From contig CAYLWL010000002.1 of the NCBI GenBank assembly GCA_964387675.1, positions 22,514-86,513 of the forward strand: DNA of 64,000 bases. The letters run 5' to 3'. The position numbers and the translations under genes are program-made. Shown one piece after another: positions 3,286-63,324 of this stretch. This stretch comes from an uncultured Candidatus Saccharibacteria bacterium. GTDB taxonomy: Bacteria > Patescibacteriota > Minisyncoccia > UBA6257 > 2-01-FULL-56-20. How positions within the stretch are numbered: position 1 is the stretch's first letter; the number at the start of each line of letters is the position of its first letter. The notes under the pieces were generated by a model that was not told where the DNA came from, did no database searches, and saw nothing but the letters and a program-made list of their open reading frames with translations.

Positions 3286-3743
3286 CGTTCGCTCGAAATA
3301 TCGAAATTTCGAAATATCGAGATGGTTTCACTTTGACGGAGGTTTTGATCGTTGTCGGGATCCTCGCGGTTGTTTTTGCCTTTGCGATCGGCGTCGGCAT
3401 CAATTTCTACGGCGGCCAAGCCGTTGTTTCGGAACGCGACACGCTCGTGAACGTGCTCCGGGCCGCGCGCGGCCGCGCCTTGAACAATTTCGACGAATCG
3501 AGCCACGGCGTTTTTATTGCCGCCGCGCAATACGTCCTTTTCGAGGGCAATTCGTACGCCAGCCGCAACCAGGATTTCGACTCCGTATTTCCGAGAGGGA
3601 AGGGGCTCACGATGAGCGGATTGTCGGAAGTCGTTTTCAACGCGCCGCAAGGCGACGCGAACGCTTCCGGCACCATAACCCTGTCGAACGACCTTGGCAA
3701 TGCTAAAATTAATATCAACAATGAAGGAAGAATTGATTGGTAA
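3282..3743 (+). CDS. prepilin-type N-terminal cleavage/methylation domain protein (pilin/pseudopilin)
   Basis: N-terminus MTFARNIEISKYRDG|FTLTEVLIVVGILAVVFAFAIG is a class III signal with G|FTLxE and a hydrophobic helix. Overlaps pilC stop by 4 nt. Confidence 0.8.
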   Translation: MTFARNIEISKYRDGFTLTEVLIVVGILAVVFAFAIGVGINFYGGQAVVSERDTLVNVLRAARGRALNNFDESSHGVFIAAAQYVLFEGNSYASRNQDFDSVFPRGKGLTMSGLSEVVFNAPQGDANASGTITLSNDLGNAKININNEGRIDW

Positions 3744-7411: not shown

Positions 7412-9328
7412 TTAGACCGAGGCGTATTTGTCGCTCGGTGAGACCTCTATCGCGTCCCACTTATCTTTGAGCGCTGCCACCTTGCCGGGGTTTGCCAAAG
7501 TCACCGAGAGAAGGATTTTCGTAAGGTTGCTGTCTGTTCGCGTAAACTTTGAACTAAAATCATTTATTTCCTCGCTCAGGAGATGAGCAAGTTCGTGGAG
7601 ATAGGTTTTCGCTGCTTCTAAAAACGGCCCGGCAAGCAAACTTTGATTGATGAAAATATCGCTTCCGCCGATCGCCGTAAATCCGTGGAGTCCTATTTCT
7701 CCTTCTAGGCCCTTCAGTTTCAGAACTTTTCTGGCGGATACTTTCGGGGCGACTTCCTGAAGGCGGAGGATAAACTCCTCGGCTTCAAATACGCCCATGG
7801 CCTGTTCTAAAAGTTTTGGATCGATCGTTCGGCCGTCGAGGAGATGCCATATTTCTTCGAGCACTTTTATCCGCTCTTGTTCCGGAGCGTTTAATTCCAC
7901 GTTTTCTGCCGTATCGACAAGCCCCACTATTTTTTCCCGCGCGAGCGGCATACCAAGCTGGTTCAGTTCCGGTATACATATGGTAAACCCCGCACTCTTC
8001 AGAACCTCTTCATAGCCATTCAAGCGGCTCGAGTAAGCACCTGCCGCATCACGAGCAACGCACATTCCCCAGAATTTTTCAGGAATCCTTGGGGACGAGG
8101 AAGTTGCTCGCATTCCAAATAACAGCTTCTTTACGATTTTTTTGACGAGCAGTAAGGCCGGTTTTTTCGCTTCCTCATAAGGCACATCTTCCCAGTAATC
8201 TTTGAGTTTTTCTAATACATTCCTGGCTTGTTCGTCGGTCATTTCTTTAACAAGCGGCGCCAGCACGTTTTCATCAAATTCCCCGGCTTCGCAGTAACTT
8301 CGATCCCTTCGCTTTTGCAAGGCCTTTCTGTTTGTCCAGATAGTCATTCCTTCAACTTGGTGCGACCAGCCATCGTGCTTTCCGTATTCATATCTTTGTC
8401 CCGAGATATAAAGATTGCCCTTTCCTCCTTTCGGCAAAAGCTCAAATCCGCCGAAGTCAGATTCAAACGTGGGGTTTTGGAAATCTTCGTTCGTGGAGCT
8501 GTAAAAGAAATCTTTCATTAAAGAGAAGTCCTCATCAAGTTTCAAAATTTCCAACGCTTCATCCGGGAGATCATCTTCATACCAATGCCAAAAGGAAGAC
8601 GGAATCGCGAATTTTAAGTAGTTGCCGGGGAATGGTTCTCGCGTAAATTTCGCGCGGACGTGAAGTCCCTGAACTTTATCTGGATAATCTTCTTCTGGCA
8701 GAGAATCCAGATAATAAATCATTTTCCAGTGGCCTGAGCCGAGCTCCACGTTATCGGTTAACCTGTTTTGCAAAAGCAGGAAGGCGGCTATTTTTACCCC
8801 CTCGCCGAATTCACCGGCGGCTTCGGGGTCATCAAACTTTGTTGTTCCTCCATGATGGATCAAATAGCGGTGATCGTATTCTGCCGGAGAGGTGATTACA
8901 AACTCGCGATACTCCCTGCCGTCAATTTGCGCGGTTCTTTCTTCGGACTTAACACCGTCGAGTGTCGGTCTCCCGGCATAAGCCGCCATGCCGTCATAAA
9001 AGTTTTGAAAAATATCCCGGAGCAGTTTTGTGTTTGACCACCCGATCATCTGGGTCTCAAGAGGACCGATGTATCTGCCACCCTCCAGTGCCTTGAGAAG
9101 TGCCGCGATAACTTCGGGATTGGATTTTTTCCGGGTTACAATTCCATACTCTTTTGCCAGTTGGTATGCGGCGTCTATGTCTTCTTTGGAGTAATTGCTC
9201 GGCCACTTCGGGTCGTCCAAAAACTTTCTTACCCGCTCAATTTCTTCGAGCGCCTCGCTTTCGGTTAATGGCTCCTGGTATGGCCCCTCGTCAGGTATGG
9301 TGAAAGATTCTTTCCGTGGTTTAGGCAT
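7412..9328 (-). CDS. large hypothetical protein (638 aa) with C-terminal HExxH zinc-peptidase-like motif
   Basis: No Walker or other family motifs recognised. C-terminal TYLHELAHLLSEE is an HExxH motif as in SprT/ImmA-IrrE-type metallopeptidases. Acidic, Trp-rich central region. Confidence 0.6.
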   Translation of the reverse strand: MPKPRKESFTIPDEGPYQEPLTESEALEEIERVRKFLDDPKWPSNYSKEDIDAAYQLAKEYGIVTRKKSNPEVIAALLKALEGGRYIGPLETQMIGWSNTKLLRDIFQNFYDGMAAYAGRPTLDGVKSEERTAQIDGREYREFVITSPAEYDHRYLIHHGGTTKFDDPEAAGEFGEGVKIAAFLLLQNRLTDNVELGSGHWKMIYYLDSLPEEDYPDKVQGLHVRAKFTREPFPGNYLKFAIPSSFWHWYEDDLPDEALEILKLDEDFSLMKDFFYSSTNEDFQNPTFESDFGGFELLPKGGKGNLYISGQRYEYGKHDGWSHQVEGMTIWTNRKALQKRRDRSYCEAGEFDENVLAPLVKEMTDEQARNVLEKLKDYWEDVPYEEAKKPALLLVKKIVKKLLFGMRATSSSPRIPEKFWGMCVARDAAGAYSSRLNGYEEVLKSAGFTICIPELNQLGMPLAREKIVGLVDTAENVELNAPEQERIKVLEEIWHLLDGRTIDPKLLEQAMGVFEAEEFILRLQEVAPKVSARKVLKLKGLEGEIGLHGFTAIGGSDIFINQSLLAGPFLEAAKTYLHELAHLLSEEINDFSSKFTRTDSNLTKILLSVTLANPGKVAALKDKWDAIEVSPSDKYASV

Positions 9329-18512: not shown

Positions 18513-18621
18513 TTTACACCCCTCTATATTACTTTTTGCGCTGCGTGTATTCTATGTGTTTGAAAATAATTTGTCAAACGTCGCGCGGAGATGGTATTAT
18601 GTTTGAGAAAATGCCCGGGAG

Positions 18622-18685
18622 TCCTGCCTGCCGGCAGGCAAGGCCTGTCTGCCGGCAGGCAGGCCTGCCTACCGGCAGACAGGGA
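18622..18685. repeat. GC-rich palindromic repeat (GCCTGCCGGCAGGCAGG units)
   Basis: cctgcctgccggcaggcaaggcctgtctgccggcaggcaggcctgcctaccggcagacaggg. Same family at 54726-54768. Confidence 0.75.
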
Positions 18686-18811
18686 AAACTCGATTTCGCT
18701 AGGGGCATTTCAATTAAAATTTCACCATTAGGTTGTTGCTTAAAAAGCAACAAAGTCAGTAAATCAAAATTATCATCGAGTCTCTACTACTTTCTATTAC
18801 CTATTACCGGG

Positions 18812-54452: not shown

Positions 54453-54668
54453 ATGAAAGACCTTTTTAAAAAACGCCCCGAATTTGTTTTTGCCGGCATT
54501 ACGATCTTGTTTCTGACAATCTTGATCGGGTATTTCGCGTGGGGGATGCGAATGATTATGACAAATCTCGGTACCGCGATCGGATCCGGGACCAGAAATG
54601 GCCAAGCAGGCGCGGGATTTGATTTGGAAGGAGCGAAGAGGTTAGACTTGAAAGGATTGATTCAATAG
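54453..54668 (+). CDS. hypothetical small membrane protein
   Basis: 71 aa, one TM (FVFAGITILFLTILIGYFAWG). Confidence 0.3.
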   Translation: MKDLFKKRPEFVFAGITILFLTILIGYFAWGMRMIMTNLGTAIGSGTRNGQAGAGFDLEGAKRLDLKGLIQ

Positions 54669-54703
54669 GTTCGCAACCGATAATGCTTTATCTGCCGGGG
54701 GAA

Positions 54704-54725
54704 GTGAGTGAATGCGCGATTAGCT
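54704..54725 (+). pseudogene. tRNA 5'-half-like fragment (acceptor plus D arm)
   Basis: GCGCGATTAGCTCAGTGGCAGA, immediately followed by a GC palindromic repeat. Matching 3' half at 54961-54985. Confidence 0.4.
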
Positions 54726-54768
54726 CAGTGGCAGACCTGCCTGCCGGCAGGCAGGTCTGCCTGCCGGC
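54726..54768. repeat. GC-rich palindromic repeat (same family as 18622-18685)
   Basis: cctgcctgccggcaggcaggtctgcctgccggcaggcagggcg. Confidence 0.75.
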
Positions 54769-54828
54769 AGGCAGGGCGCTTGTTGACCCCGCACCTTCGG
54801 AGGCGTATTATTTTAGGAATCGATGCAA

Positions 54829-54901
54829 GCGCGTGTAGCTCAGTGGTTAGAGCGCGTCGTTGACATCGACGAGGCCCGTGGTCCGATTCCACGCACGCGC
54901 A
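54829..54901 (+). tRNA. tRNA-Val (anticodon GAC)
   Basis: GCGCGTG TA GCTC AGTGGTTA GAGC G CGTCG TTGACAT CGACG AGGCC CGTGG TCCGATT CCACG CACGCGC A. All stems Watson-Crick. Confidence 0.85.
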
Positions 54902-54960
54902 CGGTTTTTAATTGGAACATACACGCCTCCAAAGTTGACGGGGCAAGCACGCAAGAGGCC

Positions 54961-54985
54961 GCAGGTCCGATCCCTGCATCGCGCA
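54961..54985 (+). pseudogene. tRNA 3'-half-like fragment (T arm plus acceptor 3' strand)
   Basis: GCAGG TCCGATC CCTGC ATCGCGC A. The acceptor strand is complementary to GCGCGAT at 54704-54710. Confidence 0.4.
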
Positions 54986-55106
54986 CAAAACTTATGAGGA
55001 GAGAATTGATAAATTAGGGAGTTGCTTTTTCTCGGTTTTTTGGTATTATCTTTTTAGCCAAAGACGCCTTGCAAGCGCGCTTTTTTCTCAACAAAAGAGG
55101 TGGCGA

Positions 55107-55751
55107 ATGATCCAGGGTCTTCCTGCGCCACGGGTGATTATCTGCGATATGGGGAATGTTCTCGTGAACGTAACTCCTCCGGATCAAACCGCTTTTTTTG
55201 CCAAGTGCGCCGTTTCGGCCGAAGAGATCAAAAGGTTTTTTACCGCCGATGAAGAGTTTTTCGAGTACGAGCGAGGGCATACTCCAAGGGAGAGATTTTT
55301 CGAGATCGTTCAAGAGAAACTCGGATACCGCGGGGATTTTCGGCAATGGGTCGATGATTTCTGCGACATCTTCAGCTTGAACCGAGAAGTGTACGACTTG
55401 CTTTTGGGAGACGTGAAAATCAATAACCAAGTGGAGATTTGGCTATTGTCGAACCTGAACGAGCTTCACTACGAGTTCCTGTTAAAGCGCTGGCCAGGAG
55501 TTTTCTCGAGTTGTCGAAGGGTTTTTCTTTCTTTCGAGCTTGGGATGAGAAAGCCGGAACCGGCGATTTGGGAATTGATTTTGCGAACCGAGGGCGCCAA
55601 GAGAGAGCGGTGTCTGCTGATAGATGACCTGGAAGCGAACTGCCGCGGCGCGTTCGATGCCGGCATGTCAAGCGTCATGTTCCTCGGCATCCTCAAATTG
55701 CGCGAACAGCTTGAGAAATTCGGACTCAATCTTGAAAACCGCGAGGAATAG
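55107..55751 (+). CDS. HAD-superfamily hydrolase-like protein (variant motif I)
   Basis: VIICDMGNVLV (DxG variant of DxD motif I), LIDDLEANCRGAFDAGMSSVMF (motifs III/IV). Confidence 0.5.
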   Translation: MIQGLPAPRVIICDMGNVLVNVTPPDQTAFFAKCAVSAEEIKRFFTADEEFFEYERGHTPRERFFEIVQEKLGYRGDFRQWVDDFCDIFSLNREVYDLLLGDVKINNQVEIWLLSNLNELHYEFLLKRWPGVFSSCRRVFLSFELGMRKPEPAIWELILRTEGAKRERCLLIDDLEANCRGAFDAGMSSVMFLGILKLREQLEKFGLNLENREE

Positions 55752-55765
55752 AAAGGGCAACTGCT

Positions 55766-55797
55766 CCGGGCTTTCGACCCGGAGCTTTCTTTTTTCA
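55766..55797 (+). terminator. rho-independent terminator after HAD-like gene
   Basis: ccgggctttcgacccgg followed by agctttcttttttc. Confidence 0.65.
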
Positions 55798-55806
55798 ATC
55801 AATTTA

Positions 55807-56082
55807 TTCTAGAACCCATCTCAAAATACCGCGAGCCGCGATAGAGGCCAATGTCCGCGAGGCCGCGGAGCGAGGACGAAGGTGTACCTTGTGGTACTCC
55901 GAGTCCGAAGCGACAATGGCCTAGTGGAAATTGGTCCTATCCCGAAGGGTTTTCGCTATTTTCTCCGCCCGCTGCGTTACGGCTCGGTCGCGGTGCATAA
56001 AGCACGGCTCTCTCGCCAAGCCTTGCGGATCGGAGAAAATAGCTGAAAACGCGACTTCGTGGTATTTTGAGATGGGTTCTAG
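55807..56082. mobile_element. 276-bp non-coding MITE-like element with 22-bp perfect terminal inverted repeats, next to tRNA-Ile
   Basis: tctagaacccatctcaaaatacc (55808-55830) / ggtattttgagatgggttctag (56061-56082). Nested IR cgctattttctcc/ggagaaaatagc inside. No ORF. Confidence 0.55.
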
Positions 56083-56105
56083 TAAGGAACGGAAGCAAAG
56101 TTTTT

Positions 56106-56177
56106 GGGTGTGTAGTTCAGTGGTAGAACGCTGTCCTGATAAGACAGAGGTCGATGGTTCGATTCCATCCACACCCA
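56106..56177 (+). tRNA. tRNA-Ile (anticodon GAT)
   Basis: GGGTGTG TA GTTC AGTGGTA GAAC G CTGTC CTGATAA GACAG AGGTC GATGG TTCGATT CCATC CACACCC A. Confidence 0.85.
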
Positions 56178-56224
56178 CAAAATCAAACCCAAATTTTACT
56201 GCGGGGCGCAATAATAACGAGGAG

Positions 56225-63003: not shown

Positions 63004-63044
63004 CGATGATGGCCTATCGTTCCCGATTTATACAAAAATTTGTT

Positions 63045-63122
63045 GCCCCTATCGTCTAGCCTGGTCTAGGACACATGGTTCTCAGCCATGGAACTGGGGT
63101 TCGAATCCCCATGGGGGCACCA
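63045..63122 (+). tRNA. tRNA-Glu (anticodon CTC), CCA encoded
   Basis: GCCCCTATCGTCTAGCCTGGTCTAGGACACATGGTTCTCAGCCATGGAACTGGGGTTCGAATCCCCATGGGGGCACCA. Confidence 0.8.
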
Positions 63123-63182
63123 AATTTTTGTAAATAAATCGAGGATCCTCGATTTTGTACAGTGTTTCACGCTAACAAAATC

Positions 63183-63236
63183 GGGAGACGTATGGTTCTT
63201 ATCCATGTAACTCGGGTTCAAATCCCAACGAGAGCA
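63183..63236 (+). pseudogene. degenerate partial copy of the 3' two-thirds of tRNA-Glu (tRNA pseudogene fragment)
   Basis: GGGAGACGTATGGTTCTTATCCATGTAACTCGGGTTCAAATCCCAACGAGAGCA aligns to the tRNA-Glu anticodon and T arms. No complementary 5' acceptor strand. Confidence 0.45.
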
Positions 63237-63324
63237 ACAATTTTTATACGGGGTCAACGCCGGAACAGGGATTCTCGACAAATCAACTTTAAAAGTCGAT
63301 AACTATGATACAATAAAGAATACA

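What the first reader, a model, noticed from the sequence alone, without database searches (positions are those of the whole stretch)
54704..54985. Split tRNA-like halves bracketing a GC-palindromic repeat and an intact tRNA-Val
GCGCGATTAGCTCAGTGGCAGA (acceptor plus D arm) at 54704-54725 and GCAGGTCCGATCCCTGCATCGCGCA (T arm plus complementary acceptor) at 54961-54985 would form a 7-bp acceptor stem with each other. They are separated by about 235 nt containing the GCCTGCCGGCAGGCAGG repeat and a complete tRNA-Val(GAC). Possible explanations: a tRNA gene disrupted by insertion, a split or permuted tRNA, or an intron-containing tRNA.
Basis: seen in the sequence. Interest (0 to 1): 0.6.

Follow-up and report, generated by a model that had tools for sequence, protein, structure and literature searches.

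The report
Broken tRNA-Val gene hosting its replacement
The two tRNA-like halves are the remains of an older valine-tRNA gene in a tiny-genome (CPR) bacterium, split when a short inverted-repeat-flanked DNA segment carrying a complete replacement valine-tRNA gene landed in its anticodon arm; the same pattern recurs at other tRNA genes in related bacteria.

Summary
Together they give a 7-bp acceptor stem, a D arm and a T arm. They belong to one tRNA-Val gene: 29/29 and 33/37 nt identical to an intact tRNA-Val found in metagenomes, and in the genomic slot where relatives carry a single tRNA-Val(GAC).

The gene is interrupted twice. Two copies of a 20-nt perfect palindrome sit inside the D-stem (54736-54775). 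About 165 nt sit in the anticodon arm: a 24-nt imperfect inverted repeat bracketing a complete, different tRNA-Val(GAC) (54829-54901) with its own promoter-like site.

No single excision restores a canonical anticodon arm (0 of 108). No group I intron is present, and the organism is a bacterium (Ca. Liptonbacteria). I conclude the outer gene is a relic and the inner gene is the working copy.

Nested or stacked relics recur in 4 of 9 related genomes at this slot, and at tRNA-Ile and tRNA-Glu loci. How the insertion happened is unresolved.

The palindrome also occurs, as the identical 20-mer, in unrelated contigs of 38-68% G+C, several times inside tRNA genes. That is unexplained.

The parts
54657..54684 (+). 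Promoter-like site (TTGATT-16-GATAAT) about 30 nt upstream of the outer 5' half; probably the original promoter of the resident tRNA-Val gene
   Evidence: consensus scan only
54714..54735 (+). Outer tRNA-Val, 5' piece 1: acceptor 5' strand GCGCGAT, TA, D-stem GCTC, D-loop AGTGGCA, first two nt (GA) of the D-stem 3' strand
   Evidence: 22/22 identical to an intact tRNA-Val
54736..54775 (.). Two tandem copies of the 20-nt palindrome CCTGCCTGCCGGCAGGCAGG (the second starts with T), inserted between A23 and G24 of the outer D-stem; removing exactly 40 nt restores GAGC
   Evidence: I1: 19-nt arms, 100% complementary; homologous relic in L016 lacks it
54776..54787 (+). Outer tRNA-Val, 5' piece 2: GC (rest of the D-stem), G26, anticodon-stem 5' strand CTTG (C31 missing), then TTGAC (remnant of anticodon loop U32-C36, anticodon GAC; also serves as a -35 box)
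54783..54806 (+). Left arm of the imperfect inverted repeat bracketing the inner gene (TTGACCCCGCACCTTCGGAGGCGT)
   Evidence: I2: 24 nt, 79%; leader/trailer duplex -45.9 kcal/mol, z -3.7; helix in the predicted fold
54783..54811 (+). Promoter-like site TTGACC-N17-TATTAT (10 of 12 positions), 17 nt upstream of the inner tRNA; it spans the outer anticodon remnant and the left repeat arm
   Evidence: 3 sites found against 0.4 expected in shuffles
54829..54901 (+). Inner, complete tRNA-Val(GAC): GCGCGTG..CACGCGC A; T-loop TCCGATT (C at position 55)
   Evidence: (67.7 bits)
54923..54946 (+). Right arm of the inverted repeat (ACGCCTCCAAAGTTGACGGGGCAA); it contains a second GTTGAC (54934-39) and a first GCAAG (54943-47)
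54948..54985 (+). Outer tRNA-Val, 3' piece: (C)AC = end of the anticodon loop, GCAAG anticodon-stem 3' strand, AGGCC variable loop, T arm GCAGG TCCGATC CCTGC, acceptor 3' strand ATCGCGC, discriminator A
   Evidence: 54948-54978, 94% of 31 nt to a relative's tRNA-Val; 33/37 to the intact tRNA-Val

Best explanation
The two halves are the relic of the resident tRNA-Val gene of this locus in a Candidatus Liptonbacteria (CPR/Patescibacteria) genome. At the DNA level, a segment of about 165 bp was inserted into its anticodon arm. This segment consists of a complete, different tRNA-Val(GAC) gene bracketed by a 24-nt imperfect inverted repeat. Later, two copies of a 20-bp palindromic repeat were inserted into the D-stem of the outer gene.

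The inner gene is the working tRNA-Val(GAC). It is probably transcribed from a promoter assembled at the left junction (TTGACC-N17-TATTAT) and/or from the old upstream promoter. It would then be released by the ordinary 5' and 3' tRNA-processing enzymes, possibly helped by cleavage of the long leader/trailer helix. The outer halves are transcribed passengers that cannot be rejoined into a usable tRNA.

Shown: the anatomy, the identity of the halves, the impossibility of a canonical repair, and the recurrence in relatives. Inferred: that the event was a DNA insertion, the order of events, the promoter use, the processing, and the non-function of the outer gene.
For: 1. Identity of the halves. 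With the palindrome removed, the 5' 29 nt are 29/29 identical, and the 3' 37 nt 33/37 identical, to an intact tRNA-Val in metagenome contigs. That tRNA has the same acceptor, anticodon and T stems. Against the tRNA-Val(GAC) genes of relatives the halves score 24-27/29 and 26-32/37.

2. Position. In syntenic relatives (DprA, a 176-aa gene, a 70-aa gene, then the slot) there is a single intact tRNA-Val(GAC) in L008, L014, L018 and L065.

3. The outer and inner genes are different genes. They differ by compensatory changes in the acceptor and T stems.

4. The outer gene is not repairable. C31 is missing. None of 108 junction combinations gives a 5-bp stem with U33 and a purine at position 37. ARAGORN intron mode finds nothing. 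The permissive repair scan gives hundreds of solutions with many different anticodons.

5. There is no ribozyme. No group I intron or other Rfam family matches at E<=10.

6. The host is bacterial.

7. Homologous and analogous nests in relatives show decay of the outer copies: L016, L017 and L019 for Val; L019, L008 and L018 for Ile; and the window's own tRNA-Glu.

8. The inner gene is a high-scoring tRNA (67.7 bits) with a promoter-like site.

9. The predicted fold gives the outer acceptor stem, the palindrome hairpin, the long repeat helix and the inner cloverleaf, with z = -7.05.

10. L016 has the same left junction but no palindrome, so the palindrome arrived later.
Against: - The outer halves are suspiciously pristine (7/7 acceptor, 4/4 D and 5/5 T pairs). 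The homologous relic in L016, which shares the same junction and the same missing C31, has decayed. A long-dead pseudogene should look worse, so one of these must apply: a recent event with a site-specific element, gene conversion from a paralogue, or some constraint.
- No transposase or integrase gene and no clean target-site duplication are present in the window.
- The repeat arm is single-copy in the 64 kb.
- There are no expression data.
- Only 64 kb of the genome could be examined, so I do not know whether other tRNA-Val genes exist.
- The stretch 54760-54843 is supported only by the MAG assembly within this species.
Confidence: 0.78

Rival explanations
1. Mechanism variant A: the insert is a small non-autonomous mobile cassette (inverted repeat, tRNA, inverted repeat) that targets its own cognate tRNA gene. 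It is tolerated because it brings a working copy, and repeated invasions give Russian-doll nests.
For: - The same architecture recurs with different insertion points: the anticodon loop in the window and L017, the D-loop in L019 Val and Ile and in the window's tRNA-Glu.
- In L019, stacked 5' tRNA-Ile pieces are each followed by the same leader CCCCGTAG(Y)AAAATTT, and the complementary trailer follows the intact gene.
- The L017 cassette has terminal repeats CCCCCACACCAA/TTGGTGTGGG and a 5-6 nt direct repeat (G)ACACG. A related repeat pair bounds a cargo-less insert in the T-loop of the L019 Ile relic.
- Leader/trailer complementarity is strong for nested cassettes (z -2 to -3.7) and absent for the plain tRNA-Gln and tRNA-Leu.
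- Single-gene slots in L014, L018 and L065 imply independent gains.
Against: - No copy of any cassette was found at a non-tRNA site or at a second locus.
- The window's repeat arm is unique in the window, and its matches in viral contigs are coincidental.
- No transposase was identified.
- The window's junction lacks a clean target-site duplication.
- The repeats could simply be native leader/trailer processing stems.
Confidence: 0.35
2. Mechanism variant B: the nest is the shrunken remnant of a larger integrative element (phage or island, for example one with a serine integrase that cuts cleanly inside its target). The element carried its own tRNA-Val and was later mostly deleted.
For: - tRNA genes are classic integration sites, and integration leaves tRNA fragments (PMC9897764).
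- A large serine recombinase gene lies about 140 nt downstream of the tRNA-Val in the sister genome L014, next to a T-arm relic.
- L017 has 3' tRNA-Val fragments that begin in the anticodon loop downstream of the intact gene. One of them is 30/30 identical to the window's inner 3' half, as expected for displaced att sites.
- A clean split without duplication fits serine recombinases (general knowledge, not tested here).
Against: - No integrase gene and no element body lie between the halves (225 nt in total).
- It does not explain the inverted repeats hugging the inner gene.
Confidence: 0.25
3. The outer tRNA is still functional. Both interruptions are removed from the RNA (intron-like or split-tRNA maturation), so the locus yields two tRNAs from one transcript.
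For: - All outer stems are intact.
- The predicted transcript fold brings the halves together through the acceptor stem and a helix of about 22 bp.
- The outer halves are better preserved than in L016.
- Patescibacteria are known to carry introns in tRNA genes (PMC13011429).
Against: - No canonical anticodon arm can be regenerated (0 of 108), and C31 is missing.
- One interruption lies inside the D-stem.
- No group I intron signature is present.
- The inserts form perfect hairpins with no bulge-helix-bulge.
- The host is a bacterium.
- The same anticodon is already supplied by the inner gene.
- Outer copies in the relatives are decayed, and several relatives have 5' pieces without 3' partners.
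Confidence: 0.04
4. Assembly chimera: repeated tRNA k-mers made the assembler nest two separate tRNA-Val genes.
For: One read-graph contig (L002) is indeed chimeric at the shared D-arm k-mer. The stretch 54760-54843 is covered only by the MAG contig.
Against: - Independent assemblies from several other runs reproduce both flanks.
- The same left junction, including the missing C31, occurs in another species from another project (L016).
- Analogous nests occur in JGI, ENA and NCBI contigs.
Confidence: 0.03
5. The halves are a partial duplication of the neighbouring (inner) tRNA-Val.
For: Shared universal D-arm sequence, the same AGGCC variable loop, and the unusual TCCGAT T-loop (D1/D2).
Against: - The acceptor stems differ by compensatory pairs (GCGCGAT/ATCGCGC against GCGCGTG/CACGCGC).
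- The T stems differ at three pairs.
- The anticodon stems differ.
- Identity is 25/29 and 28/37, against 29/29 and 33/37 to another tRNA-Val.
Confidence: 0.03

Closest known systems
tRNA gene fragments left by integration of phages and genomic islands into tRNA genes (att-site duplications)
   Same: Orphan tRNA pieces lie next to an intact tRNA gene at a hot spot. A recombinase gene sits at the same slot in a sister genome (L014). In L017, 3' pieces starting in the anticodon loop lie downstream of the intact gene.
   Different: [quoted passage not shown] Here two complementary, non-overlapping halves of one gene enclose a complete second gene within 225 nt, and there is no element body and no integrase.
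Disrupted tRNA genes of Archaea and red algae (multiple or non-canonical introns, split and permuted tRNAs; the Caldiarchaeum model of disruption by a mobile element)
   Same: Interruptions occur at several positions (D arm, anticodon arm, variable loop, T loop). Complementary flanks bring the pieces together. A mobile-element origin has been proposed (PMC3293823, PMC4390854).
   Different: Those genes are functional and are repaired by a bulge-helix-bulge endonuclease plus a ligase. Here the host is a bacterium, there is no bulge-helix-bulge, the exons cannot form a canonical tRNA, and a complete tRNA of the same anticodon sits inside.
Group I introns in tRNA genes of Patescibacteria and other bacteria
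   Same: The same phylum, with interrupted tRNA genes that standard tools miss (PMC13011429).
   Different: No group I intron model matches. The insert is about 165 nt, of which 73 nt are a tRNA. The exons do not rejoin into a canonical tRNA.
Intervening sequences of bacterial rRNA genes (inverted-repeat-bounded inserts cut out by RNase III without religation). Recalled, not tested.
   Same: An insert in a structural RNA gene is bounded by a long helix that would be an RNase III-type substrate. This is a plausible way for the inner pre-tRNA to be released.
   Different: Fragmented rRNA still works. A tRNA cut in its anticodon arm would not decode. No RNase III cleavage data exist here.
Small GC-rich palindromic repeats: REP/BIME elements, Rickettsia palindromic elements, mitochondrial GC clusters, and the PstI palindromes flanking tRNA genes in Neurospora mitochondria. 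Recalled; PMC4478555 only listed.
   Same: Short GC-rich hairpin-forming repeats that are dispersed, sometimes tandem, and inserted in or beside RNA genes.
   Different: Those families are lineage-specific and usually longer or imperfect. This one is the identical 20-mer in contigs of 38-68% G+C and is inserted to the nucleotide inside tRNA D arms and variable loops.

Membership tests
Self-splicing (group I) intron-containing bacterial tRNA | The intervening sequence folds as a group I ribozyme | tested here: not met
   Rfam scan of 54500-55200 at E<=10 lists no intron family; none in the relatives either
Self-splicing (group I) intron-containing bacterial tRNA | The exons rejoin into a canonical cloverleaf | tested here: not met
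   0 of 108 junction combinations give a 5-bp stem with U33 and R37; ARAGORN intron mode negative
Archaeal-type intron-containing, split or permuted tRNA | Bulge-helix-bulge motif at the exon/intron boundaries | tested here: not met
   The palindrome forms a perfect 19-bp hairpin. The second insert is closed by an imperfect long helix without the 3-4-3 motif
Archaeal-type intron-containing, split or permuted tRNA | The host encodes a tRNA splicing endonuclease and ligase | not testable with these tools
   Only 64 kb of the genome is available. The neighbours are bacterial TopA, DprA and MraZ, and the source is named Ca. Liptonbacteria
att-site tRNA fragment from integrase-mediated integration | The partial copy duplicates part of the complete copy, as a direct repeat at the two ends of an element | tested here: not met
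   The halves are complementary parts of one gene and differ from the inner gene. Only 225 nt lie between them
att-site tRNA fragment from integrase-mediated integration | An integrase or recombinase gene within the element | tested here: not met
   No such gene between or beside the halves. A serine recombinase is present at the same slot in L014 only
MITE-like non-autonomous transposable element | Terminal inverted repeats | tested here: met
   Arms of 24 nt, 79% complementary, at 54783-54806 and 54923-54946; duplex z -3.7
MITE-like non-autonomous transposable element | Target-site duplication directly abutting the repeats | tested here: inconclusive
   GTTGAC occurs at 54782-87 and 54934-39, and GCAAG at 54943-47 and 54951-55, but neither pair abuts the repeat ends cleanly. 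The L017 cassette has (G)ACACG on both sides
MITE-like non-autonomous transposable element | Multiple copies in the genome | tested here: not met
   The arm is unique in the 64-kb window at up to 3 mismatches. Viral-contig matches are coincidental coding sequence.
Dispersed palindromic repeat family (REP-like), for the 20-nt palindrome | Many dispersed, hairpin-forming copies, sometimes in tandem | tested here: met
   Two arrays in the window; copies in L008 and L019; 41 distinct sites in viral contigs, 39 with the full 20-mer
Dispersed palindromic repeat family (REP-like), for the 20-nt palindrome | An associated REP-type (RAYT) or other transposase | not tested
   No protein search was made around the copies

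The most novel reading that the evidence does not exclude
CPR bacteria of this clade harbour small inverted-repeat-bracketed tRNA gene cassettes that home into their own cognate tRNA genes. The cassettes are neutral because they bring a working copy, and each new copy becomes the next target, producing Russian-doll nests (Val, Ile, Glu). Separately, an identical 20-bp palindrome moves across very different genomes and inserts to the nucleotide into tRNA D arms and variable loops by an unknown, possibly templated, mechanism.
Probability: 0.3. Interest if true: 0.75.

Novelty: new variant of a known kind. Interest (0 to 1): 0.5.

Why it matters
Disrupted tRNA genes have mostly been discussed for Archaea, where they are repaired at the RNA level. 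In bacteria, tRNA fragments are read as scars of phage or island integration. Here a bacterial tRNA gene is replaced from the inside by a compact cassette carrying the same tRNA, and this has happened repeatedly at several tRNA genes of a CPR clade.

If the cassettes are mobile, this would be a new way for a selfish element to invade an essential single-copy gene without cost. It would also be a new route of tRNA gene turnover in minimal genomes.

In practice, such nests confuse tRNA annotation and read-graph assembly: contigs break or become chimeric at these sites. The cross-phylum 20-bp palindrome that lands precisely in tRNA genes is an independent puzzle worth a dedicated survey.

Tried and rejected
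- **ARAGORN intron mode**, on the native sequence and with the palindrome removed: no outer tRNA.
- **Exhaustive deletion scan with ARAGORN**: too permissive to identify a junction, giving 1132 of 5184 constructs with many different anticodons. I replaced it with a strict rule-based test.
- **Rfam at permissive threshold**: only spurious microRNA-type hairpin hits on the palindrome. No group I intron in the relatives' inserts.
- **Phage database BLAST of the locus**: only generic tRNA similarity.
- **Species-representative genome scan with the upstream protein**: returned only the already known relative.
- **Inner tRNA 3' half in viral contigs**: no match.
- **Repeat-arm 17-mer in viral contigs**: 106 stretches matched. 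In the 80 returned as loci, 64 share one conserved coding context of a single phage family and 0 of 80 lie near a tRNA. Rejected as coincidence.
- **L002** as evidence for a population variant: rejected, because its first 46 nt are another tRNA joined through a shared k-mer.
- **The idea that leader/trailer inverted repeats are a general feature of tRNA genes here**: rejected, because tRNA-Gln and tRNA-Leu lack them.
- **Resolving the anticodon-arm junction to the nucleotide**: not possible, because the duplicated GTTGAC and GCAAG motifs allow several readings.
- **Literature search for the palindrome sequence**: nothing relevant.

Full report
**1. Observation**

The 5' string lies at 54714-54735, 10 nt downstream of the stated position. 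The 3' string lies at 54961-54985.

- GCGCGAT (54714-20) and ATCGCGC (54978-84) form a perfect 7-bp acceptor stem (I11).
- ARAGORN and Rfam find one complete tRNA-Val(GAC) between them, at 54829-54901/2 (67.7 bits).
- The GC palindrome is two tandem 20-nt units, CCTGCCTGCCGGCAGGCAGG, at 54736-54775. A second array of three diverged units lies at 18623-18683.

**2. Organism and assembly support**

The neighbouring genes are bacterial: TopA, DprA, NUDIX, HAD and VWA, with MraZ further on. The window is 100% identical to contig JACQKV010000013.1 of GCA_016204365.1, a Candidatus Liptonbacteria MAG (CPR/Patescibacteria).

Independent read assemblies from other runs support most of the arrangement:

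- L011 and L012 reproduce the upstream genes, the 5' half and the first palindrome.
- L003-L007 reproduce 54844 to 56131, including the 3' half.
- Contigs break inside the palindrome and inside the shared D-arm sequence, and one (L002) is chimeric there.
- The stretch 54760-54843 is seen only in the MAG, but its junction is reproduced in another species (section 6).

**3. What the halves are**

Read as a tRNA, the outer pieces give:

GCGCGAT TA GCTC AGTGGCA GA | 40-nt palindrome | GC G CTTG TTGAC ... (C)AC GCAAG AGGCC GCAGG TCCGATC CCTGC ATCGCGC A

- Removing exactly 40 nt restores the D-stem strand GAGC.
- A metagenome scan for the 5' 29 nt without the palindrome found intact tRNAs with the same acceptor, anticodon-stem and T-stem sequences: GCGCGAT TA GCTC AGTGGCA GAGC G CTTGC TTCACAC GCAAG AAGTC GCAGG TTCGAAC CCTGC ATCGCGC A. 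Identity is 29/29 and 33/37.
- Relatives of the window's organism carry tRNA-Val(GAC) with the same anticodon stem, CTTGC ATGACAC GCAAG (L017, L065).
- Against these templates the outer gene lacks C31. Its loop is broken after TTGAC and resumes at (C)AC.
- The outer and inner genes differ by compensatory changes in the acceptor and T stems (25/29 and 28/37). The halves are therefore not a partial copy of the inner gene.

**4. The insert in the anticodon arm**

The inner tRNA is bracketed by an imperfect inverted repeat, 54783-54806 and 54923-54946 (24 nt, 79%).

- The leader/trailer duplex is -45.9 kcal/mol, with z -3.7 against shuffles.
- The whole 272-nt unit folds into the outer acceptor stem, the palindrome hairpin, the long repeat helix, the inner cloverleaf and the outer T arm (-140 kcal/mol, z -7.05).
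- A promoter-like site, TTGACC-N17-TATTAT (54783-54811), spans the outer anticodon remnant and the left arm, 17 nt upstream of the inner tRNA. A second promoter-like site lies upstream of the outer 5' half.
- GTTGAC occurs at both sides (54782-87 and 54934-39) and GCAAG occurs twice (54943-47 and 54951-55). CGGGGCAAGC (54939-48) is the reverse complement of the left junction without its TTGA. Because of these repeats the junction cannot be fixed to the nucleotide.

**5. Can the outer tRNA be repaired?**

- ARAGORN in intron mode finds nothing, with or without the palindrome.
- A permissive deletion scan accepts the scaffold at 1132 of 5184 junctions with many different anticodons. This shows that the acceptor, D and T arms are tRNA-grade but that no particular anticodon arm exists.
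- A strict test (5-bp stem, 7-nt loop, U33, purine 37) fails for all 108 combinations.
- No group I intron or other RNA family matches the inserts.
- One interruption lies inside a stem, and the host is a bacterium.

I therefore regard RNA-level repair as very unlikely.

**6. Comparison with relatives**

The upstream 177-aa gene has 16 homologues. I read the slot downstream of the 70-aa gene in eight further genomes.

- **Single intact tRNA-Val(GAC):** L008, L014 (followed about 140 nt downstream by a large serine recombinase gene and a T-arm relic), L018, L065, and L021 (contig ends inside the gene).
- **L016 (nested):** a decayed outer 5' piece, an inner tRNA 69/74 identical to the window's inner gene, and a decayed outer 3' piece.
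- **L017 (nested):** an outer 5' half, a 190-nt insert in the anticodon stem, then the rest of the loop. Next comes a cassette, CCCCCACACCAAAAT - intact Val - CAGAGAATTGGTGTGGG, flanked by (G)ACACG on both sides. After it lie a decayed outer 3' piece and a further 3' fragment 30/30 identical to the window's inner 3' half.
- **L019 (nested):** a 5' piece, a cassette with an intact Val, then a decayed remainder.

A BLAST map confirms these orphan pieces objectively.

The alignment of the window with L016 shows the same left junction, CAGTGGCAGAG[C/T]GCTTGTTG[A/G]CC[C/T]CGCA, including the missing C31 but without the palindrome. The nest is therefore shared by descent, or made by a strictly site-specific element, and the palindrome arrived later.

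**7. The pattern is not limited to tRNA-Val**

- **L019:** three stacked 5' tRNA-Ile pieces are each followed by CCCCGTAG(Y)AAAATTT. Then come the intact Ile, the complementary trailer, and the rest of an outer Ile. That outer Ile is interrupted in the anticodon stem, in the variable loop (by the same 20-nt palindrome) and in the T loop.
- **L008:** truncated 5' tRNA-Ile copies lie upstream of the intact gene. One carries the palindrome in its D-stem.
- **L018:** a 5' Ile piece has a GC hairpin insert.
- **Window tRNA-Glu:** the gene is hugged by a 22-nt inverted repeat (91%) and followed by a decayed 3' tRNA fragment.
- **Control:** plain tRNA-Gln and tRNA-Leu have no such repeats.

**8. Explanation**

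The best-supported reading has three parts:

- The resident tRNA-Val gene was split at the DNA level by a compact, inverted-repeat-bracketed segment that carries a complete tRNA-Val(GAC).
- The inner gene now supplies the function.
- The outer halves are relics, and the palindrome colonised the relic afterwards.

How the segment got there is open. The candidates are a small self-targeting cassette, the shrunken remnant of an integrative element (a recombinase sits at this slot in L014, and displaced 3' fragments occur in L017), or repair synthesis.

The main unexplained point is that the window's outer halves are intact in every stem, whereas the homologous relic in L016 has decayed. Gene conversion from a paralogue, a recent event, or some constraint could explain this. 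The rest of the genome could not be reached to test it.

**9. Comparison with what is known**

- Disrupted tRNA genes are known in Archaea (PMC3293823, PMC4390854).
- Patescibacteria carry group I introns in tRNA genes (PMC13011429).

None of these describes a complete tRNA gene nested between the two complementary halves of another, or stacked nests. Searches of the paper library found no such description.

**10. The palindrome**

- The 18-nt core occurs in 37 stretches of viral contigs with 38-68% G+C. Of 41 distinct sites, 39 carry the full 20-mer.
- It lies in the variable loop of a tRNA-Met (L046; L023 also has a T-arm deletion) and between the D-loop and D-stem of a truncated tRNA (L055). 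These are the same kinds of position as in the window, L008 and L019. In each case, removing exactly 20 or 40 nt restores the tRNA sequence.
- Six of 41 sites have flanking direct repeats of 6 nt or more, against 1.5% in controls.
- No paper in the library contains the sequence. What mobilises it is unknown.

**11. Verdict**

This is a real and anatomically striking feature: a disrupted, almost certainly non-functional tRNA-Val gene hosting its own replacement. The recurrence in a CPR clade, and the cross-phylum palindrome, give it moderate interest beyond an ordinary pseudogene.

Noticed in passing
window 54736-54775 and 18623-18683; L008 2895-2913; L019 2533-2552; L046 about 2284-2303; L023 about 8616-8635; L055 about 515-534: The identical 20-nt perfect palindrome CCTGCCTGCCGGCAGGCAGG occurs in contigs of 38-68% G+C (41 distinct sites, 39 with the full 20-mer). 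It is inserted to the nucleotide in tRNA D arms and variable loops. Some non-tRNA sites have flanking direct repeats of 6-14 nt. No literature hit; the mobilising mechanism is unknown.
   Followed up: partly
window 18572-18760: The second palindrome array (three diverged units) lies between a promoter-like TTGTCA-N17-TATTAT and a terminator-like hairpin GTTGTTGCTT..AAGCAACAA. Its flanks ATGCCC and GGGGCAT are complementary. It may be a small RNA carrying the palindromes. There are no meaningful Rfam matches.
   Followed up: partly
window 63010-63245: tRNA-Glu(CTC) at 63045-63122 is bracketed by a 22-nt inverted repeat (63031-52 and 63111-32, 91%). A short 5' relic (GGCCTATCGT) precedes it. A decayed 3' tRNA fragment follows it (63192-63226, 86% of 35 nt, anticodon loop TTCTTAT). 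This is a second, older nest in the same window.
   Followed up: partly
window 55809-56082: A 274-nt element with 26-nt terminal inverted repeats (96%: CTAGAACCCATCTCAAAATACCGCGA / TCGTGGTATTTTGAGATGGGTTCTAG) lies between the HAD gene and tRNA-Ile. It has an inner 18-nt inverted repeat and a T-arm-like motif at 55933. It looks like a MITE or a structured RNA.
   Followed up: partly
window 56179-56212: The trailer of tRNA-Ile (..ACCCAAATTTTACTGCGGGG) is homologous to the right repeat arm of the L019 tRNA-Ile cassette (CCCAAATTTGCTACGGGG). No matching left arm survives upstream. This is possibly half of an old cassette.
   Followed up: no
window 54880-54890 and 54964-54974; L014, L017, L019 tRNA-Val; L018 tRNA-Ile: The T-loops read TCCGAT(T/C), with C at position 55 where U (pseudouridine 55) is almost universal. 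Other tRNAs of the same genomes keep TTCGA.
   Followed up: no
L014 3524-4864 (minus strand): A large serine recombinase gene (Resolvase, Recombinase and Zn_ribbon_recom domains) starts about 140 nt downstream of the tRNA-Val of a sister genome, beside a T-arm relic (AGTCCGATCCC at 3514). This slot is an integration site.
   Followed up: no
L059, L061, L062, L063 (about 45 nt downstream of their tRNA-Val(CAC)): In unrelated contigs of about 55% G+C, the tRNA-Val(CAC) is followed by a tRNA-like sequence with the same acceptor stem and T arm. This sequence lacks most of the D arm and has a GTCGC-CGCG-GCGAC hairpin in place of the anticodon arm. It is conserved in four contigs and absent in L060.
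   Followed up: no
L002 1-46: This read-graph contig joins the 3' end of another tRNA and a foreign tRNA-Val 5' end to the window's inner tRNA through a shared k-mer. It shows how these loci produce chimeric contigs.
   Followed up: yes
L065 1518-1660: An element of about 130 nt with inverted ends (AGAAAGAGAAGTTGTTTTCAGAACCC ... GGGTTCCGAAAATAACTTCTCTTTCT) lies just upstream of the intact tRNA-Val of another relative. Small inverted-repeat elements cluster around tRNA genes in this clade.
   Followed up: no
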